This document shows positions 1 to 7,761 of a stretch of DNA of 64,000 bases, piece after piece. Below the pieces are notes generated by a model. The model worked only from the letters and a program-made list of their open reading frames with translations. It was not told where the DNA came from and searched no databases. Both the position numbers and the translations under genes were made by a program. Location of the stretch: assembly GCF_044647545.1 (NCBI RefSeq), contig NZ_CP172818.1. One strand, given 5' to 3'. Within the stretch, counting starts at the first letter, position 1. Each line of letters starts with the position of its first letter. Source of the stretch: Escherichia coli (GTDB taxonomy: Bacteria; Pseudomonadota; Gammaproteobacteria; Enterobacterales; Enterobacteriaceae).

Positions 1-157
1 TCCGCTGGCATCACTACTACCGTGCGATAACGTCTTTGCCATCGAAAGCCGCTGGTATCGCGACAACCCGCTGGTGATCCGCGGGCCAGGTGCAGGGCGC
101 GATGTCACCGCCGGGGCGATTCAGTCGGATATTAACCGTCTGGCGCAGTTGTTGTAA
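1..157 (+). CDS. metL: Bifunctional aspartokinase/homoserine dehydrogenase II, C-terminal fragment (window starts inside the gene)
   Basis: Frame beginning at nt 2 translates to ...AIQSDINRLAQLL then TAA at 155-157; position immediately upstream of metF matches metBL-metF synteny. Confidence 0.8.
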   Translation, partial: PLASLLPCDNVFAIESRWYRDNPLVIRGPGAGRDVTAGAIQSDINRLAQLL

Positions 158-178
158 TTTCAGTACTCTAAAATGCCC

Positions 179-227
<49 letters not shown>

Positions 228-390
228 GCATGTATTTGAACGGCGTTTAAAATGGTTTTAAATGAAACTATAATGCGGTAACGATAGGTATTGAAACGCG
301 TGATGAAATTAAATGCTACAACGTTATACGACGAACTCAAAGGCAAGGTGATTTGACTTCCTGATCACGAAGTGTTCCGGCCCGGCAGCC

Positions 391-928
391 AAAAGGGGGG
401 AAAAAGCGGCGCGGAAAAAAAAAAAGCGGGAGGGGAAAGGGGGGATAACCGGGGAGCAAAGGCGGCGAAAGCGAAAAACAAAACGCAAACCCACAAACGG
501 AGGGGGGCGAAAGGAGAACAAAAAGAAAAGGCGAAAGAAAAAAACGCAAAACCAACGCGACGAGGAAGGCCCAACCGGCAAAAAAAAAAGCAACGACGGA
601 AAAAAAAGTGAGAAGTGGCAACAAACGGCGCGCAACGCGAAAAAACGTCAGGAACGCCCCAGGAAGGGGTGAGCGGGGCGGGGGGGAAAAACCACCACGC
701 AACAGCGCGGGAGCCGGGGGGGAGAGGCGCCACACAAACGAAGAAGAAGGGAAAAAAAAAAGGAGGGGGGAGAAAGGAAAAGGGAAAAAAGAACGACACA
801 ACGGGGGCGGGGAAACAAGAACCAAAGAGCGCCAAAACAGGAAGGACACAAGGAAAGCGCGTAAACAAGGGCGGATACAAACAAACGGAAACCACAGAGA
901 ACAGACAAGGAGGAAAAAAAAACCAATA
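391..928. repeat. T-depleted purine-rich low-complexity tract (about 8 T in ~540 nt) with several G-run clusters
   Basis: Direct count on the + strand: whole 60-nt lines with zero T (481-600, 721-840); A roughly half, G about 30 percent, C under 20 percent. Minus strand is correspondingly A-free. Confidence 0.95.
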
Positions 929-1199
929 AAGTACGTGTTGAGTTGATTTTCATTTGTTTGTTACCCAGTTGATTTTGCATATCCAGTATTCGGCCTACGC
1001 GAGGGCGCAGGCCGAATCAGATGTCTTACAACAACAATCCGGTGCGACACGTTGTTTTTCGAAGAAGCCCAGGGTCCGTGTTCAGAATAACAGCAAAAAG
1101 GGGGAGGGGATGCGGCACAAAAAAAATCTTTTATCGCCTCTAATTAAGATGAAGTTTTTTCAACTTCCCTGATTTTTCCTCACCATCATTGGTCATTTT

Positions 1200-1262
1200 T
1201 CGGTTGACGCCCCTCGGCTTTTCCTTCATCTTTACATCTGGACGTCTAAATGGATAGATGTT
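1200..1262 (+). promoter_or_regulatory. metF promoter region with tandem MetJ-box-like octamers
   Basis: ttgacg at 1204-1209; tandem 8-mers acatctgg/acgtctaa/atggatag/atgttcac around 1230-1262 resemble the AGACGTCT met-box consensus, ~45 nt upstream of the metF ATG. Confidence 0.55.
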
Positions 1263-1301
1263 CACAACACAACATATAACTACAAGCGATTGATGAGGTA
1301 A

Positions 1302-2195
<894 letters not shown>

Positions 2196-2469
2196 ATAGT
2201 GTGGCTTTTGTGAAAATCACACAGTGATCACAAATTTTAAACAGAGCACAAAATGCTGCCTCGAAATGAGGGCGGGAAAATAAGGTTGTCAGCCTTGTTT
2301 TCTCCCTCATTACTTGACGGATATGAAGCTAAAACCCTTTTTTATAAAGCATTTGTCCGAATTCGGACATAATCAAAAAAGCTTAATTACGATCAATTTG
2401 ATCTACATCTCTTTAACCAACAATATGTAAGATCTCAACTATCGCATCCGTGGATTAATTCAATTATAA

Positions 2470-4704
<2,235 letters not shown>

Positions 4705-4713
4705 TCTGACCTT

Positions 4714-4753
4714 CTTCAGCGACTGCCTTTCAGGCAGTCGCTGAAGTTTCTTT
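4714..4753 (+). terminator. Intrinsic terminator downstream of katG
   Basis: Perfect hairpin cttcagcgactgcc/ggcagtcgctgaag followed by tttcttt. Confidence 0.7.
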
Positions 4754-4797
4754 ACCGGCGTATAGTGTCCACAGGAAAACTACACACTGGATCTCTC

Positions 4798-5703
4798 ATG
4801 TCTGCCGCAGGAAAGAGCAACCCACTGGCAATCAGTGGCCTGGTTGTGCTCACACTTATCTGGAGTTATAGCTGGATTTTCATGAAGCAAGTCACCAGCT
4901 ACATCGGTGCCTTCGACTTTACCGCCTTACGCTGCATTTTCGGCGCTCTCGTTTTATTCATCGTCCTTTTATTACGTGGTCGCGGAATGCGCCCGACACC
5001 GTTTAAATACACCTTAGCCATTGCCCTGTTACAAACCTGCGGGATGGTCGGCCTGGCGCAGTGGGCGCTGGTCAGCGGAGGAGCGGGGAAGGTGGCAATC
5101 CTGAGCTATACCATGCCGTTCTGGGTGGTGATTTTCGCCGCGTTGTTTCTCGGTGAACGCCTGCGACGTGGGCAATATTTCGCGATTCTGATTGCCGCTT
5201 TCGGCTTATTTTTGGTGTTGCAGCCGTGGCAACTCGATTTCTCTTCGATGAAAAGCGCCATGCTGGCAATCCTCTCCGGTGTGAGTTGGGGGGCGAGCGC
5301 GATTGTTGCTAAACGTCTGTATGCCCGCCATCCGCGCGTGGATTTATTGTCGCTAACATCCTGGCAGATGCTGTATGCGGCGCTGGTGATGAGCGTGGTC
5401 GCTTTACTGGTGCCGCAACGTGAAATTGACTGGCAACCCACCGTGTTCTGGGCGCTGGCCTACAGTGCGATTCTGGCGACAGCGCTGGCGTGGAGCTTAT
5501 GGTTGTTTGTATTGAAAAACTTGCCTGCCAGTATTGCCAGCTTAAGCACACTGGCCGTTCCCGTTTGCGGCGTACTCTTTTCCTGGTGGCTGCTCGGTGA
5601 GAATCCGGGGGCCGTTGAAGGTAGCGGTATTGTGCTGATTGTGCTGGCACTGGCGCTGGTGAGCCGTAAGAAAAAAGAAGCTGTCAGTGTAAAAAACATC
5701 TGA
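4798..5703 (+). CDS. yijE: EamA/DMT-family inner membrane transporter
   Basis: 301 aa from internal Met ([15 protein letters not shown]...); multi-pass hydrophobic profile; synteny after katG. Confidence 0.85.
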
Positions 5704-5729
5704 ATTTTTTCTTCATGTGGGGCGATCGC

Positions 5730-6347
5730 TTATTTAACAAAATACCGATAGTGCCCCACCATCCGCCAGCTAAACAGCACGTCTTCTTCCTGCGCGCCTG
5801 CGCCAATGTTATGTATCACCAGCGGCGTACCGTCGCGGGCGAAGCCATCTGACACCACCCCAATATGTGCCAGCCCGTTATCTAATCGCCAGGAGACAAT
5901 ATCGCCCGATTGATAGTCACTGGGGTTCTTGCTGGTGGGGCGTGTTTTATCGTGGCGGGTAAACCAGGTTTCCAGATTAGGCACCCGACGGTGATCGATG
6001 TTGCTGTCCGGGCGCTTTAACTGCCATTTTTGCGGGTACGCAGCAAAATTCTTCGCCATATCTTCGTGCACCAGTTTCTGCAAATCGACCTTCTGGCTGC
6101 GCAATGCACGGATCACCACATCGGAACATACGCCGCGTTCTTGCGGGACATCACCGCCAGGATAGGTAAGCTGCACATACGCCGGATCGTAAAATAGCGT
6201 GCTGCCGATTTGCTGTCTGGCACCGTCTGCGATGGCAAGGTTGGTGTTGGCCTGGATCTGTACCACGGTTGGTGGAACGGCGGGAGATTTTAAGGAGTGG
6301 CTGGTAAATGCCGTTAGCAGGCTGACCAGCACCAGTGAAGCTTTCAT
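5730..6347 (-). CDS. yijF: Conserved periplasmic protein of unknown function (DUF1287 family)
   Basis: 205-aa ORF with N-terminal signal-peptide-like segment (MKASLVLVSLLTAFTSHS); synteny. Confidence 0.85.
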   Translation of the reverse strand: MKASLVLVSLLTAFTSHSLKSPAVPPTVVQIQANTNLAIADGARQQIGSTLFYDPAYVQLTYPGGDVPQERGVCSDVVIRALRSQKVDLQKLVHEDMAKNFAAYPQKWQLKRPDSNIDHRRVPNLETWFTRHDKTRPTSKNPSDYQSGDIVSWRLDNGLAHIGVVSDGFARDGTPLVIHNIGAGAQEEDVLFSWRMVGHYRYFVK

Positions 6348-6492
6348 CTGGTTCGTCCGTGAAAATAAGAGTCACAGATTCGACCTTCCGGGCTAACGAT
6401 TGTTCTGTAGAGAAAATGTCCAGAAGCGGATAAAAAATTCCTGAACAACGTGGGAGTTTCAGACATAACTATAAAAATCTCAACACCCCTTT

Positions 6493-6585
6493 GGGAGAGA
6501 GTCAGGGTGAGGAGGAACAGGCCAGCTCCGGGGCGAATAATCACCCTCACCCCGACCCTCTCCCTGAAAGGGCGAGGGGGAAAAA
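6493..6585. repeat. Intergenic palindromic repeat unit (long imperfect inverted repeat)
   Basis: gggagagagtcagggtgagg ... cctcaccccgaccctctccc forms a ~20-bp-arm inverted repeat; resembles a recurring enterobacterial intergenic palindrome family. Confidence 0.5.
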
Positions 6586-6657
6586 CATGCCCGCAGTGAC
6601 GAGTGAGCCACTTTGCCTGATCTCAAACTCCCGGACAAGCCGGGAGTTTGGAGTAGG

Positions 6658-7761
6658 TTATTCCCATTCTTGCAGGAAACGCTGGCCATACTGGTCGGCT
6701 ACCAGCAGTGCGGCGTAAACCTGATCTGGCGTTGCACCGCCTGGCATGTTGTGAATGGTTTCACCTTCTGCACATGCCGCTTCTGCCACAATTCGCATTT
6801 TCGCCGGGACATCTTCTTTAATATCCAGTTGAGCGAGCGTTATTGGCAAACCTACCGCATGGCTAAGCGCAGCTACGGTTTCGATTTCCTCCACCGGCGC
6901 GTTTTCCAGAACCAGCTGCGTCAGCGTACCGAATGCCACTTTTTCACCATGATAATAGTGATGCGCGTCCGGGATAGCGGTCAGGCCGTTATGTACCGCG
7001 TGTGCCGCCGCCAGCCCGCCGCTTTCAAAACCAACACCGCTCAAATAGGTGTTCGCTTCAATCACGCGTTCCAGCGCCGGAGTCACTACATGCTGTTCGG
7101 CGGCAAGCATCGCTTTTTCGCCTTCTTCCAGCAGAGTGTTGTAGCACAGTTCTGCCAGTGCCAGCGCCGCCTGGGTGCACTTGCCGCCCGCCATGGTGGT
7201 CGCGCCGCTACGAGAGCAAGCACGCGCTTCAAACCAGGTTGCCAGCGCATCGCCGATACCCGCCGCTAACAGACGTGCAGGTGCGCCAGCGACGATTTTG
7301 GTGTCGACAATGACCATATTCGGGTTATTTGGCAACAGCAGATAGCGGTCAAACTCACCCTCATCGGTGTAGATAACAGACAATGCGCTGCATGGTGCAT
7401 CGGTAGAGGCGATAGTCGGTGCGATCGCTACCGGAACACCCATGAAATGTGCCAGTGCTTTGGCAGTATCGAGGGTTTTTCCGCCACCGATACCGAGAAT
7501 TGCGCCACACTGCGCAGTCTCCGCGATGCCACGCAGACGGTCGATCTCATTTTGCGAACATTCACCGCCAAACGGCGCAATTTCTACTACCAGTCCAGCA
7601 TCTTTAAAACTTTTCTCGACAGTGGATTGAGCAAAACCTAAAACAAATTTGTCACCCACCACTAACCAGCGTTCTGCCAGCGGCTTCAGGTATTCGCCCA
7701 GACGATTAATCACATCAGCGCCCTGGATGTATTTACCCGGTGATTGAATAATGCGGTCCAT
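6658..7761 (-). CDS. gldA: Glycerol dehydrogenase
   Basis: 367 aa from internal Met ([17 protein letters not shown]...); iron-containing alcohol dehydrogenase family. Confidence 0.95.

What the first reader, a model, noticed from the sequence alone, without database searches (positions are those of the whole stretch)
6493..6585. Long imperfect inverted repeat in the yijF-gldA spacer
gggagagagtcagggtgagg...cctcaccccgaccctctccc followed by tgaaagggcgaggggg forms a ~20-bp-arm hairpin or cruciform. It resembles a recurring enterobacterial intergenic palindromic family rather than a simple REP, and lies between convergent 3' ends, where such elements typically act as mRNA stabilisers or terminators.
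Basis: seen in the sequence. Interest (0 to 1): 0.15.

Follow-up and report, generated by a model that had tools for sequence, protein, structure and literature searches.

The report
Inverted pair of BoxC repeats
The palindrome is real, but it is an ordinary copy of a known enterobacterial repeat, BoxC (also called PIT or TMECO): two units in inverted orientation, one intact and one decayed, filling a slot where most E. coli carry a REP/BIME element.

Summary
The inverted repeat exists as described: arms 6493-6512 and 6545-6564, 18 of 20 bases complementary, 32-nt gap. It is the only repeat of that quality in the 64-kb window, and none appeared in shuffled sequence. It is not a REP, an ERIC or a canonical terminator. 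It is a head-to-head pair of BoxC / PIT / TMECO units, the potential intrastrand-triplex repeats of Holder et al. 2015. The minus-strand unit (6544-6578) matches the published consensus exactly. The plus-strand unit (about 6479-6515) has lost its pyrimidine block. The pair and its conserved central spacer match paired BoxC composites at four other K-12 loci. The slot is polymorphic: 4592 of 5426 complete E. coli genomes and four other Escherichia species carry a two-REP BIME there, and 630 carry an intact BoxC pair. According to Holder et al., earlier work found no promoter or terminator activity for this family, only an association with local instability. Here almost all differences from the intact allele fall in one unit. 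Known family; low interest.

The parts
6544..6578 (-). Intact BoxC/TMECO unit, type B with one mismatched triplet: CCCTCGCCC-TTTCA-GGGAGAGGG-TCG-GGGTGAGGG. On the plus strand, block 3 is 6544-6552, loop 2 is 6553-6555, block 2 is 6556-6564, loop 1 is 6565-6569 and block 1 is 6570-6578.
   Evidence: Exact match to the published consensus CCCTCNCCC-N3-6-GGGNGAGGG-N3-GGGNGAGGG (regex scan; consensus from PMC4666352). It differs by one loop base from K-12 TMECO no. 10. It is 36/36 identical to the intact allele of strain FDAARGOS_497.
6479..6515 (+). Decayed type-A BoxC unit. The remnant of the pyrimidine block is CACCCC (6484-6489), loop 1 is TTT, block 2 is GGGAGAGAG (6493-6501), loop 2 is TCA (6502-6504) and block 3 is GGGTGAGGA (6505-6513).
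   Evidence: It fails the consensus regex and has 10 mismatches to the type-A 36-mer. The pairwise alignment with the intact allele shows a 9-nt deletion of the CCCTCT block, several 1-nt deletions, one 1-nt insertion and 2 substitutions.
6516..6543 (.). Central spacer of the pair (AACAGGCCAGCTCCGGGGCGAATAATCA), which forms the loop of the large hairpin.
   Evidence: It is conserved between this locus and the K-12 pairs at ygfF-gcvP, alx-sstT and fepB-entC (alignment A2). It has 2 substitutions relative to the intact allele.
6493..6564 (.). These are the G-blocks of the A unit pairing with the complement of the G-blocks of the B unit.
6465..6622 (.). The whole composite cassette: A-side flank remnant, A unit, spacer, B unit and B-side flank. 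This is the segment that differs from the BIME allele.
   Evidence: Positions 110-300 of the intact allele's spacer match the K-12 ygfF-gcvP intergenic region at 84.8% over 191 nt. The alignment with the K-12 BIME allele shows the replaced segment.
6579..6598 (-). Type-B-specific 5' flank (minus strand ...GGGCATGTTTTTCC), the extension that makes up the classical 56-bp BoxC.
   Evidence: It is conserved upstream of type-B units at yijF-gldA, ygfF-gcvP, alx-sstT and yagA-yagE.
6624..6650 (-). Hairpin directly after the gldA stop codon (CAAACTCCCGG-loop-CCGGGAGTTTG). It is not part of the BoxC element and is the better candidate for a gldA 3'-end structure.
   Evidence: Perfect 11-bp stem. RNA fold -23.5 kcal/mol, z = -4.6. 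Present in all E. coli alleles examined and in five other Escherichia species; the stem is unchanged in three of these and altered in two. It has no T-run, so the terminator scan does not call it.
6435..6459 (.). Decayed direct copy of the same hairpin on the yijF side of the cassette (AAATTCCTGAACAACGTGGGAGTTT).
   Evidence: 76% identical to 6625-6649 (family D1). In E. whittamii and in the GTDB species represented by strain SCPM-O-B-8794, both copies are good hairpins.

Best explanation
The palindrome is a composite of two BoxC units (synonyms: PIT element, TMECO) in inverted, head-to-head orientation. A type-A unit lies on the plus strand and a type-B unit on the minus strand, separated by a conserved spacer of about 28 nt. 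BoxC is a dispersed, chromosomal, intergenic repeat family of E. coli and its relatives.

Each intact unit reads pyrimidine block - loop - purine block - loop - purine block. As single-stranded DNA it folds into a hairpin with a third strand laid on top, giving a purine-motif intrastrand triplex. The inverted repeat arises only because two such units face each other.

In this window the B unit is intact. The A unit has lost its pyrimidine block, so only the long hairpin remains possible.

The composite replaced an ancestral two-REP BIME in the slot between the gldA 3' hairpin and the yijF upstream region. Most likely it has no dedicated regulatory role. It persists as a neutral or selfish structured repeat, and its main consequence is local sequence instability when the strands are unwound during replication or repair.

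What is shown and what is inferred:
- Shown here: identity, architecture, family membership, polymorphism of the slot, and the clustering of changes in one unit.
- Taken from the literature: triplex formation in vitro, the lack of promoter or terminator activity, and the association with variable loci.
- Inferred: that instability, not function, explains this copy.
For: - Consensus: the published TMECO consensus matches exactly at 6544-6578 on the minus strand, and the intact allele has two matches, A on plus and B on minus (consensus and K-12 table from PMC4666352).
- Architecture: the paper states that all five inverted pairs in MG1655 combine one type A with one type B unit. The same arrangement is seen here.
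- Homology to other pairs: alignment of the 125-nt unit with four K-12 pairs has 84% mean column identity, including the central spacer. Homology to ygfF-gcvP extends over 191 nt at 84.8%.
- Copy number: 14151 places in 4354 genomes, of which only 2 are on plasmids.
- Beyond Escherichia: intact units also occur in the Leclercia and Enterobacter loci fetched here.
- Alleles at this slot: the BIME allele covers at least 80% of the query in 4592 of 5426 genomes, and the intact BoxC pair in 630.
- Ancestral state: E. albertii, E. whittamii, Escherichia sp. E1V33 and strain SCPM-O-B-8794 all carry a two-REP BIME allele of the K-12 type. Escherichia sp. MOD1-EC7003 carries a larger REP cluster. This makes the BoxC allele derived.
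- Instability signature: compared with the intact allele, both flanks (117/117 and 35/35) and the B unit (36/36) are identical. About 12 of about 14 differences lie in 6465-6542. The hairpin is weaker than in the intact allele: DNA fold -21 and -27 kcal/mol here against -36 and -34.
- Literature: TMECO single strands form a stable triplex in vitro, and TMECO loci are more variable than control loci. At palindromic sites, partial deletions leave a hairpin.
Against: - In vivo DMS footprinting and CD/NMR on the double-stranded form gave no sign of a stable triplex (PMC4666352). The structure-driven mechanism therefore rests on transient single-stranded states.
- The link between BoxC and variability is a correlation. 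The repeats might simply accumulate in slots that are already variable; this slot also takes up REPs and REP-targeting IS elements.
- No expression data were available, so a role in the gldA 3' UTR or in yijF expression is not excluded.
- The decayed A half was not found in any other assembly. Part of it could be an error in the source sequence.
Confidence: 0.82

Rival explanations
1. The hairpin is transcribed as part of the gldA 3' UTR. It then acts as a transcription terminator, or as a 3'-exonuclease barrier that stabilises gldA mRNA, as some REP/BIME elements do.
For: On the minus strand (the gldA sense strand) the RNA hairpin is very stable: -63.3 kcal/mol, z = -5.7. It lies 78-179 nt downstream of the gldA stop codon. 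The hairpin directly after the stop codon has no T-run, so read-through into the element is plausible. The slot holds a BIME in most strains, and BIMEs have documented stabiliser and attenuator roles (background in PMC2267715).
Against: The genes are co-directional, not convergent. No T-run follows the big hairpin closely enough for the terminator scan to call it. Holder et al. 2015 report that an earlier study found neither terminator nor promoter activity, and no effect on RNA polymerase, for PIT/BoxC elements. The element is absent at this locus from about 88% of E. coli genomes and from the other Escherichia species examined. The 6624-6650 hairpin, by contrast, is present in all of them.
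Confidence: 0.1
2. The roughly 190-bp composite is a discrete non-autonomous mobile or convertible cassette, comparable to a MITE or a REPIN. It entered this slot as a unit, displacing the BIME, either through an unknown recombinase or by ectopic gene conversion from a paralogous composite.
For: The segment that differs between the BoxC and BIME alleles coincides with the segment homologous to the ygfF-gcvP composite. At ygfF-gcvP, strains that lack ygfF have their breakpoint exactly at the A-side end of the composite, next to the retained gcvP terminator hairpin. Flank motifs such as GATGACAA on the A side are shared by paired composites and absent from single units.
Against: No terminal inverted repeat or target-site duplication specific to the composite could be defined. 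The closest K-12 paralogue is only about 85% identical, so there is no sign of recent copying. Holder et al. found no association with transposons, phages or plasmids, and only 2 of 14151 places are on plasmids. No clean empty site was recovered at either locus: one shows replacement of a BIME, the other an indel that includes a gene.
Confidence: 0.2
3. The element acts on yijF. It lies 132-233 nt upstream of the yijF start codon. Replacing the BIME with a GC-rich palindrome could change promoter context, supercoiling or protein binding, and so change yijF expression.
For: Its position is upstream of yijF. Holder et al. note that TMECOs lie upstream of ORFs more often than downstream.
Against: No sigma-70-like promoter was found anywhere in 6250-6750. 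The family shows no preferred distance to ORFs and no functional class of neighbouring genes. No promoter activity was reported for it.
Confidence: 0.05
4. The decayed state of the left unit is wholly or partly a sequencing or assembly artefact of the source record, because GC-rich hairpins are error-prone. The true allele would then be the intact 330-bp form.
For: Six of the differences are 1-nt indels packed into 50 nt, while the flanks and the B unit are 100% identical to the intact allele. The allele is absent from 5426 complete E. coli genomes (best match 80%) and from the metagenome contigs.
Against: The 9-nt and 5-nt deletions and the substitutions are not typical base-calling errors. 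Holder et al. describe similar partial deletions at palindromic TMECO sites in finished genomes. The window's lineage appears not to be represented in the collection: the best identity over 6.4 kb is 99.4%. Absence of the allele is therefore weak evidence.
Confidence: 0.1

Closest known systems
BoxC / PIT element / TMECO (Holder et al. 2015, NAR 43:10126, PMC4666352, which credits the earlier BoxC and PIT descriptions)
   Same: The three-block motif is the same. The minus-strand unit matches the consensus exactly and differs from K-12 copy no. 10 by one loop base. The element is intergenic and chromosomal. It shows the inverted type A + type B pairing with the conserved spacer seen at five MG1655 sites. 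The partial deletion of one unit that still leaves a hairpin is as described for palindromic sites.
   Different: This locus carries no BoxC in K-12, which has a BIME there. The window's particular decayed allele was not found in any other assembly searched.
REP / BIME elements, including the IHF-site-containing BIME-1/RIP type
   Same: Both are short GC-rich palindromic intergenic repeats that often occur as inverted pairs with a spacer and lie downstream of genes. A BIME occupies exactly this slot in most E. coli and in other Escherichia species.
   Different: There is no sequence similarity. The REP consensus is absent from the whole window at up to 3 mismatches. BoxC has the triple-block purine/pyrimidine organisation that REP lacks. 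REP-specific IS elements (IS621, IS1397) hit the BIME allele, and none was seen in the BoxC allele. The assignment of the K-12 allele to the BIME-1/RIP subtype rests on my recollection of the linker motif and was not tested.
REPINs (REP doublets forming hairpins, Bertels & Rainey 2011, PMC3116915) and MITEs
   Same: Two inverted short repeats plus a spacer form one long hairpin, and this unit behaves as a higher-order repeat dispersed in intergenic DNA.
   Different: No cognate transposase (RAYT or other) is known for BoxC or was found here. No TIR or TSD could be defined. This is a resemblance in architecture only.
ERIC / IRU
   Same: Both are imperfect palindromes of about 100-130 bp found in enterobacterial intergenic regions.
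   Different: The ERIC core sequence (the ERIC2 primer site, recalled from memory) is absent from the window at up to 3 mismatches. The sequences are unrelated.

Membership tests
BoxC / PIT / TMECO | Motif CCCTCNCCC-N3-6-GGGNGAGGG-N3-GGGNGAGGG (consensus of Holder et al. 2015) | tested here: met
   There is an exact match at 6544-6578 on the minus strand. The plus-strand partner at about 6479-6515 does NOT meet it (10 mismatches, pyrimidine block deleted). It is orthologous to an intact type-A unit in the 330-bp allele.
BoxC / PIT / TMECO | Dispersed, multi-copy and strictly intergenic on the chromosome | tested here: met
   The element is intergenic here. The 95-nt pair has homologues in 4354 of 5426 E. 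coli genomes, median 3 and up to 8 places per genome, with 14149 of 14151 places on chromosomes. Intact units were confirmed at 10 other K-12 loci. The copy number in the window's own genome cannot be tested, because only 64 kb is available and it contains this one locus.
BoxC / PIT / TMECO | Paired form: one type A (loop 2 TTA) plus one type B (loop 2 CCG-like) unit in inverted orientation | tested here: met
   The right unit has loop 2 TCG (type B). The left unit has TCA, derived from the TTA of the intact allele. The arrangement and spacer align with the K-12 pairs. The rule is stated in PMC4666352.
BoxC / PIT / TMECO | Conserved flank of about 20 nt that extends the 36-nt motif to the classical 56-bp BoxC | tested here: met
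   The type-B 5' flank (GGGCATGTTTTTCC) is shared with other type-B copies. The type-A flank is largely deleted in the window.
BoxC / PIT / TMECO | The single strand folds into an intramolecular purine-motif triplex | not testable with these tools
   The nearest-neighbour folding used here models Watson-Crick hairpins only. CD/NMR evidence exists for K-12 TMECO oligonucleotides (PMC4666352).
REP / BIME / RIP | REP consensus palindrome (GCCGGATGCGGCGTGAACGCCTTATCCGGCCTAC type) | tested here: not met
   No match in the window at up to 3 mismatches. The K-12 allele of the same spacer does contain two inverted REPs.
ERIC / IRU | Conserved ERIC core (ERIC2 primer site AAGTAAGTGACTGGGGTGAGCG, recalled from memory) | tested here: not met
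   No match at up to 3 mismatches.
Intrinsic (Rho-independent) terminator | GC-rich hairpin followed within 0-2 nt by a T-run | tested here: not met
   The scan of 6250-6750 returns only a weak 5-bp stem at 6603-6590 on the minus strand, against 0.8 expected by chance, and nothing at the BoxC hairpin.
Any curated RNA family (Rfam 15) | Score at or above the family's gathering threshold | tested here: not met
   There are only generic long-hairpin hits to eukaryotic miRNA models, at most 29.9 bits against thresholds of 53-105.
MITE / REPIN-like mobile element | Constant termini with a target-site duplication, and precise presence/absence polymorphism | tested here: inconclusive
   The breakpoints at two loci coincide with the ends of the composite. 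However, no clean empty site, TIR or composite-specific TSD was found.

The most novel reading that the evidence does not exclude
The paired BoxC composite (about 190 bp, with its own flank motifs) would be a discrete cassette that moves or is converted between intergenic slots next to terminator-type hairpins. Here it displaced an ancestral BIME inside a slot bracketed by a duplicated 25-nt hairpin. That would give BoxC a mode of spread, which is so far unknown, and would make the yijF-gldA slot a natural 'landing pad' shared by two unrelated repeat families.
Probability: 0.15. Interest if true: 0.4.

Novelty: already known. Interest (0 to 1): 0.1.

Why it matters
It matters little. The finding can be annotated as a BoxC/PIT/TMECO inverted pair rather than as an unknown palindrome, a terminator or a REP.

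It has modest value as a clear example of two points:
- One intergenic slot alternates between two unrelated repeat families. It holds a BIME in most Escherichia and a BoxC pair in about 12% of E. coli, and it is also hit by the REP-targeting elements IS621 and IS1397.
- Decay of a BoxC pair is concentrated in one unit while everything around it is unchanged. This fits the published association of the family with local instability.

If the composite proved to be mobile as a unit, that would address the open question of how BoxC elements spread.

Tried and rejected
- **Rfam:** only spurious miRNA-type hairpin hits far below threshold, so no known RNA family.
- **REP and ERIC consensus searches:** negative.
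- **Terminator and promoter scan:** nothing at the element.
- **Coding potential:** three mechanical ORFs cross the element (49, 68 and 69 aa). None is on record as a called gene anywhere. I rejected them as coding, and they also failed to find other assemblies with this allele.
- **Exact-sequence scan of the metagenome contigs for the decayed junction:** no hit.
- **YijF exact-protein look-up:** returned only genomes with the intact 330-bp allele, so the source lineage was not identified.
- **Holder et al. supplements:** no entry by gene name or by the exact unit sequence. The stored file is truncated, so I could not confirm that this locus is one of their 63 TMECO loci.
- **The 'RSA' 152-bp repeat:** I recalled from memory that this K-12 repeat might correspond to the paired composite. 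A literature search found nothing, so the lead was left untested.
- **Literature search for newer functional work on BoxC/PIT/TMECO:** only the 2015 paper and reviews that cite it.
- **Chance palindrome:** rejected.

Full report
**Observation.** The repeat finder gives arms 6493-6512 and 6545-6564, with 18 of 20 bases complementary and 32 nt between them, plus a weaker outer extension at 6487-6501 / 6558-6572. This is the only inverted repeat in the 64-kb window with 20-nt arms, at most 2 mismatches and a gap of up to 60 nt. Fifteen dinucleotide-preserving shuffles gave none. Folded as RNA, the 111-nt region reaches -50.6 kcal/mol on the plus strand (z = -3.7) and -63.3 kcal/mol on the minus strand (z = -5.7). 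Folded as DNA, z = -1.8 and -3.9.

**Context.** The ORF map and the MG1655 annotation show katG(+), yijE(+), yijF(-), gldA(-), fsaB(-). yijF (5730-6347) and gldA (6658-7761) are co-directional. A perfect 11-bp hairpin (6624-6650) lies directly after the gldA stop. It is present in every allele and every Escherichia species examined.

**Identity.**
- A literature search led to Holder et al. 2015 (PMC4666352). That paper defines the TMECO motif, earlier called BoxC and PIT element, as CCCTCNCCC-N3-6-GGGNGAGGG-N3-GGGNGAGGG. It lists 23 copies in MG1655. Five sites hold inverted pairs, and each pair combines a type A unit (loop 2 TTA) with a type B unit (loop 2 CCG-like).
- A regex scan finds one exact match in the window, at 6544-6578 on the minus strand: CCCTCGCCC-TTTCA-GGGAGAGGG-TCG-GGGTGAGGG, type B. 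It differs from K-12 copy no. 10 by one loop base.
- The left arm (about 6479-6515, plus strand) fails the motif.
- Aligning the 125-nt region with the K-12 pairs at ygfF-gcvP, alx-sstT, fepB-entC and hrpB-mrcB gives 84% mean column identity, including the roughly 28-nt central spacer.
- The 95-nt core has homologues in 4354 of 5426 complete E. coli genomes, median 3 places per genome, almost all chromosomal.
- The ~20-nt 5' flanks specific to type A and type B, which make up the classical 56-bp BoxC, are conserved across 12 loci.
- Intact units also turned up in the Leclercia and Enterobacter loci fetched for another purpose.
- REP and ERIC consensus searches, Rfam and a terminator scan were all negative.

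**The slot is polymorphic.**
- The window's 310-bp spacer matches no complete E. coli genome end to end at more than 92%.
- K-12 and 4592 of 5426 genomes have a 274-bp spacer in which two inverted REPs (a BIME) occupy the same position.
- 630 genomes have a 330-bp spacer with an intact A+B BoxC pair.
- Among the roughly 200 remaining genomes, the four inspected all have IS621 or IS1397 inserted in the BIME allele.
- A pattern scan of one genome per species recovered the gldA 3' end in 34 enterobacterial species. yijF lies next to gldA only in Escherichia (it was detected in four of the five Escherichia loci; the fifth holds only 720 nt of that flank).
- E. albertii, E. whittamii, Escherichia sp. 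E1V33 and strain SCPM-O-B-8794 all have a two-REP BIME allele of the K-12 type. Escherichia sp. MOD1-EC7003 has a larger REP cluster.
- By parsimony the BIME is ancestral, and the BoxC composite is a derived replacement within E. coli.

**Asymmetric decay.** I aligned the window with the intact allele of strain FDAARGOS_497. The left flank (117/117), the right flank (35/35) and the B unit (36/36) are identical. The A half (6465-6514) carries deletions of 5, 1, 1, 1, 1, 9 and 1 nt (the 5-nt one at its left boundary, at 6464/6465), one 1-nt insertion and 2 substitutions. The central spacer carries 2 substitutions, and the B flank has two 1-nt gaps. About 12 of about 14 differences therefore fall in 78 of 310 positions. 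The 9-nt deletion removes the pyrimidine block, so the A unit can no longer form the small hairpin or triplex, although the long hairpin survives in weakened form: DNA fold -21 and -27 kcal/mol, against -36 and -34 in the intact allele. Holder et al. describe this pattern for palindromic TMECO sites. The plus strand has positive GC skew throughout the window. The decayed G-rich unit therefore lies on the lagging-strand template. This fits a structure-induced slippage model, but it is a single case and an inference.

The decayed allele was not found in the 5426 genomes (best match 80%) or in the metagenome contigs. No ORF called across it is on record. The window's lineage seems to be outside the collection, since the best identity over 6.4 kb is 99.4%. 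I cannot exclude that part of the decay is a sequencing artefact.

**How it most likely works.**
- From the literature: TMECO single strands form a stable triplex in vitro. The duplex form and in vivo DMS footprinting show no stable triplex. PIT elements blocked DNA polymerase in vitro but had no promoter or terminator activity and no in vivo effects. TMECO loci are more variable than control intergenic loci.
- From this work: the element is absent from this locus in most E. coli and in sister species, and the gldA-proximal hairpin, not the BoxC pair, is what all of them share.
- Conclusion: I read the element as a neutral or selfish structured repeat whose main effect is local instability, not as a terminator or stabiliser.
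- Caveat: a role in the gldA 3' UTR remains possible, because the hairpin after the stop codon has no T-run and read-through would produce a -63 kcal/mol RNA hairpin. This is untested and runs against the published negative assays.

**A possible extension.**
- Homology between paired composites reaches beyond the 56-bp units: 191 nt at 84.8% between the yijF-gldA and ygfF-gcvP composites.
- The segment that differs from the BIME allele coincides with that homologous segment.
- At ygfF-gcvP, about 2400 genomes lack the K-12 arrangement. In the two I inspected, ygfF is absent, and in the one whose junction I read the breakpoint lies exactly at the A-side end of the composite, next to the retained gcvP terminator hairpin.
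- This is compatible with the composite behaving as a cassette, but I found no TIR, TSD or clean empty site. The paralogues are only about 85% identical. I rate the idea at about 0.15-0.2.

**Verdict.** The family guess was right: it is Box C. The gene orientation and the proposed function were wrong. The element is a member of an already described family in an already described arrangement, so interest is low.

Noticed in passing
window 6435-6459 and 6625-6649; also L017 and L030: The variable cassette is bracketed by two direct copies of one 25-nt hairpin (AAACTCCCGG-loop-CCGGGAGTTT). The copy on the gldA side is intact. The copy on the yijF side has decayed in E. coli but is a good hairpin in E. 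whittamii and in strain SCPM-O-B-8794, where the two copies share the same changed stem. This looks like an ancient duplication of the gldA 3' hairpin around the inserted repeat. Its origin is unexplained.
   Followed up: partly
L003 (NZ_CP074756.1), L013 (NZ_CP074914.1), L012 (NZ_LT903847.1), L014 (NZ_CP200346.1): In other E. coli strains the BIME allele of this same spacer carries insertions of IS621 (IS110 family) or IS1397 (IS3 family). From memory, both are known to target REP/BIME sequences. No such insertion was seen in the BoxC allele.
   Followed up: partly
L005 (K-12 ygfF-gcvP) compared with L049 and L050 (bglA-gcvP): About 2400 complete E. coli genomes lack the K-12 ygfF-plus-BoxC arrangement; in the two inspected, bglA directly abuts gcvP. 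In L049, the one whose junction was read, the indel breakpoint lies exactly at the A-side end of the BoxC composite, beside the retained gcvP terminator hairpin. In K-12 the composite ends about 35-40 nt upstream of the ygfF start codon.
   Followed up: partly
L037 (Leclercia adecarboxylata LR590464.1), locus coordinates 4656-4975: A type-B and a type-A TMECO unit flank a tandem array of about five 45-nt partial units (CCCTCTTCCCAGAGGAGCGAGGAAGGAAAACAGCGCCGGGCCGTA-like). This arrangement is not seen in the E. coli loci examined.
   Followed up: no
window 6590-6603, minus strand: This is the only terminator-like consensus hit in the spacer: a 5-bp stem (CTCGTCACTGCGGG) followed by CATGTTTTTC. 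Its T-run is the conserved 5' flank of the type-B BoxC unit. The hit is weak, with 0.8 such hits expected by chance.
   Followed up: no
window 1-6400: The flanking 6.4 kb is at best 99.4% identical, with 88% coverage in two pieces, to any of the 5426 complete E. coli genomes. Only 82 genomes reach 99% or more. The best matches carry about 2 kb of extra DNA in this stretch. The window therefore comes from an Escherichia/Shigella-type lineage that is not represented in that collection.
   Followed up: no
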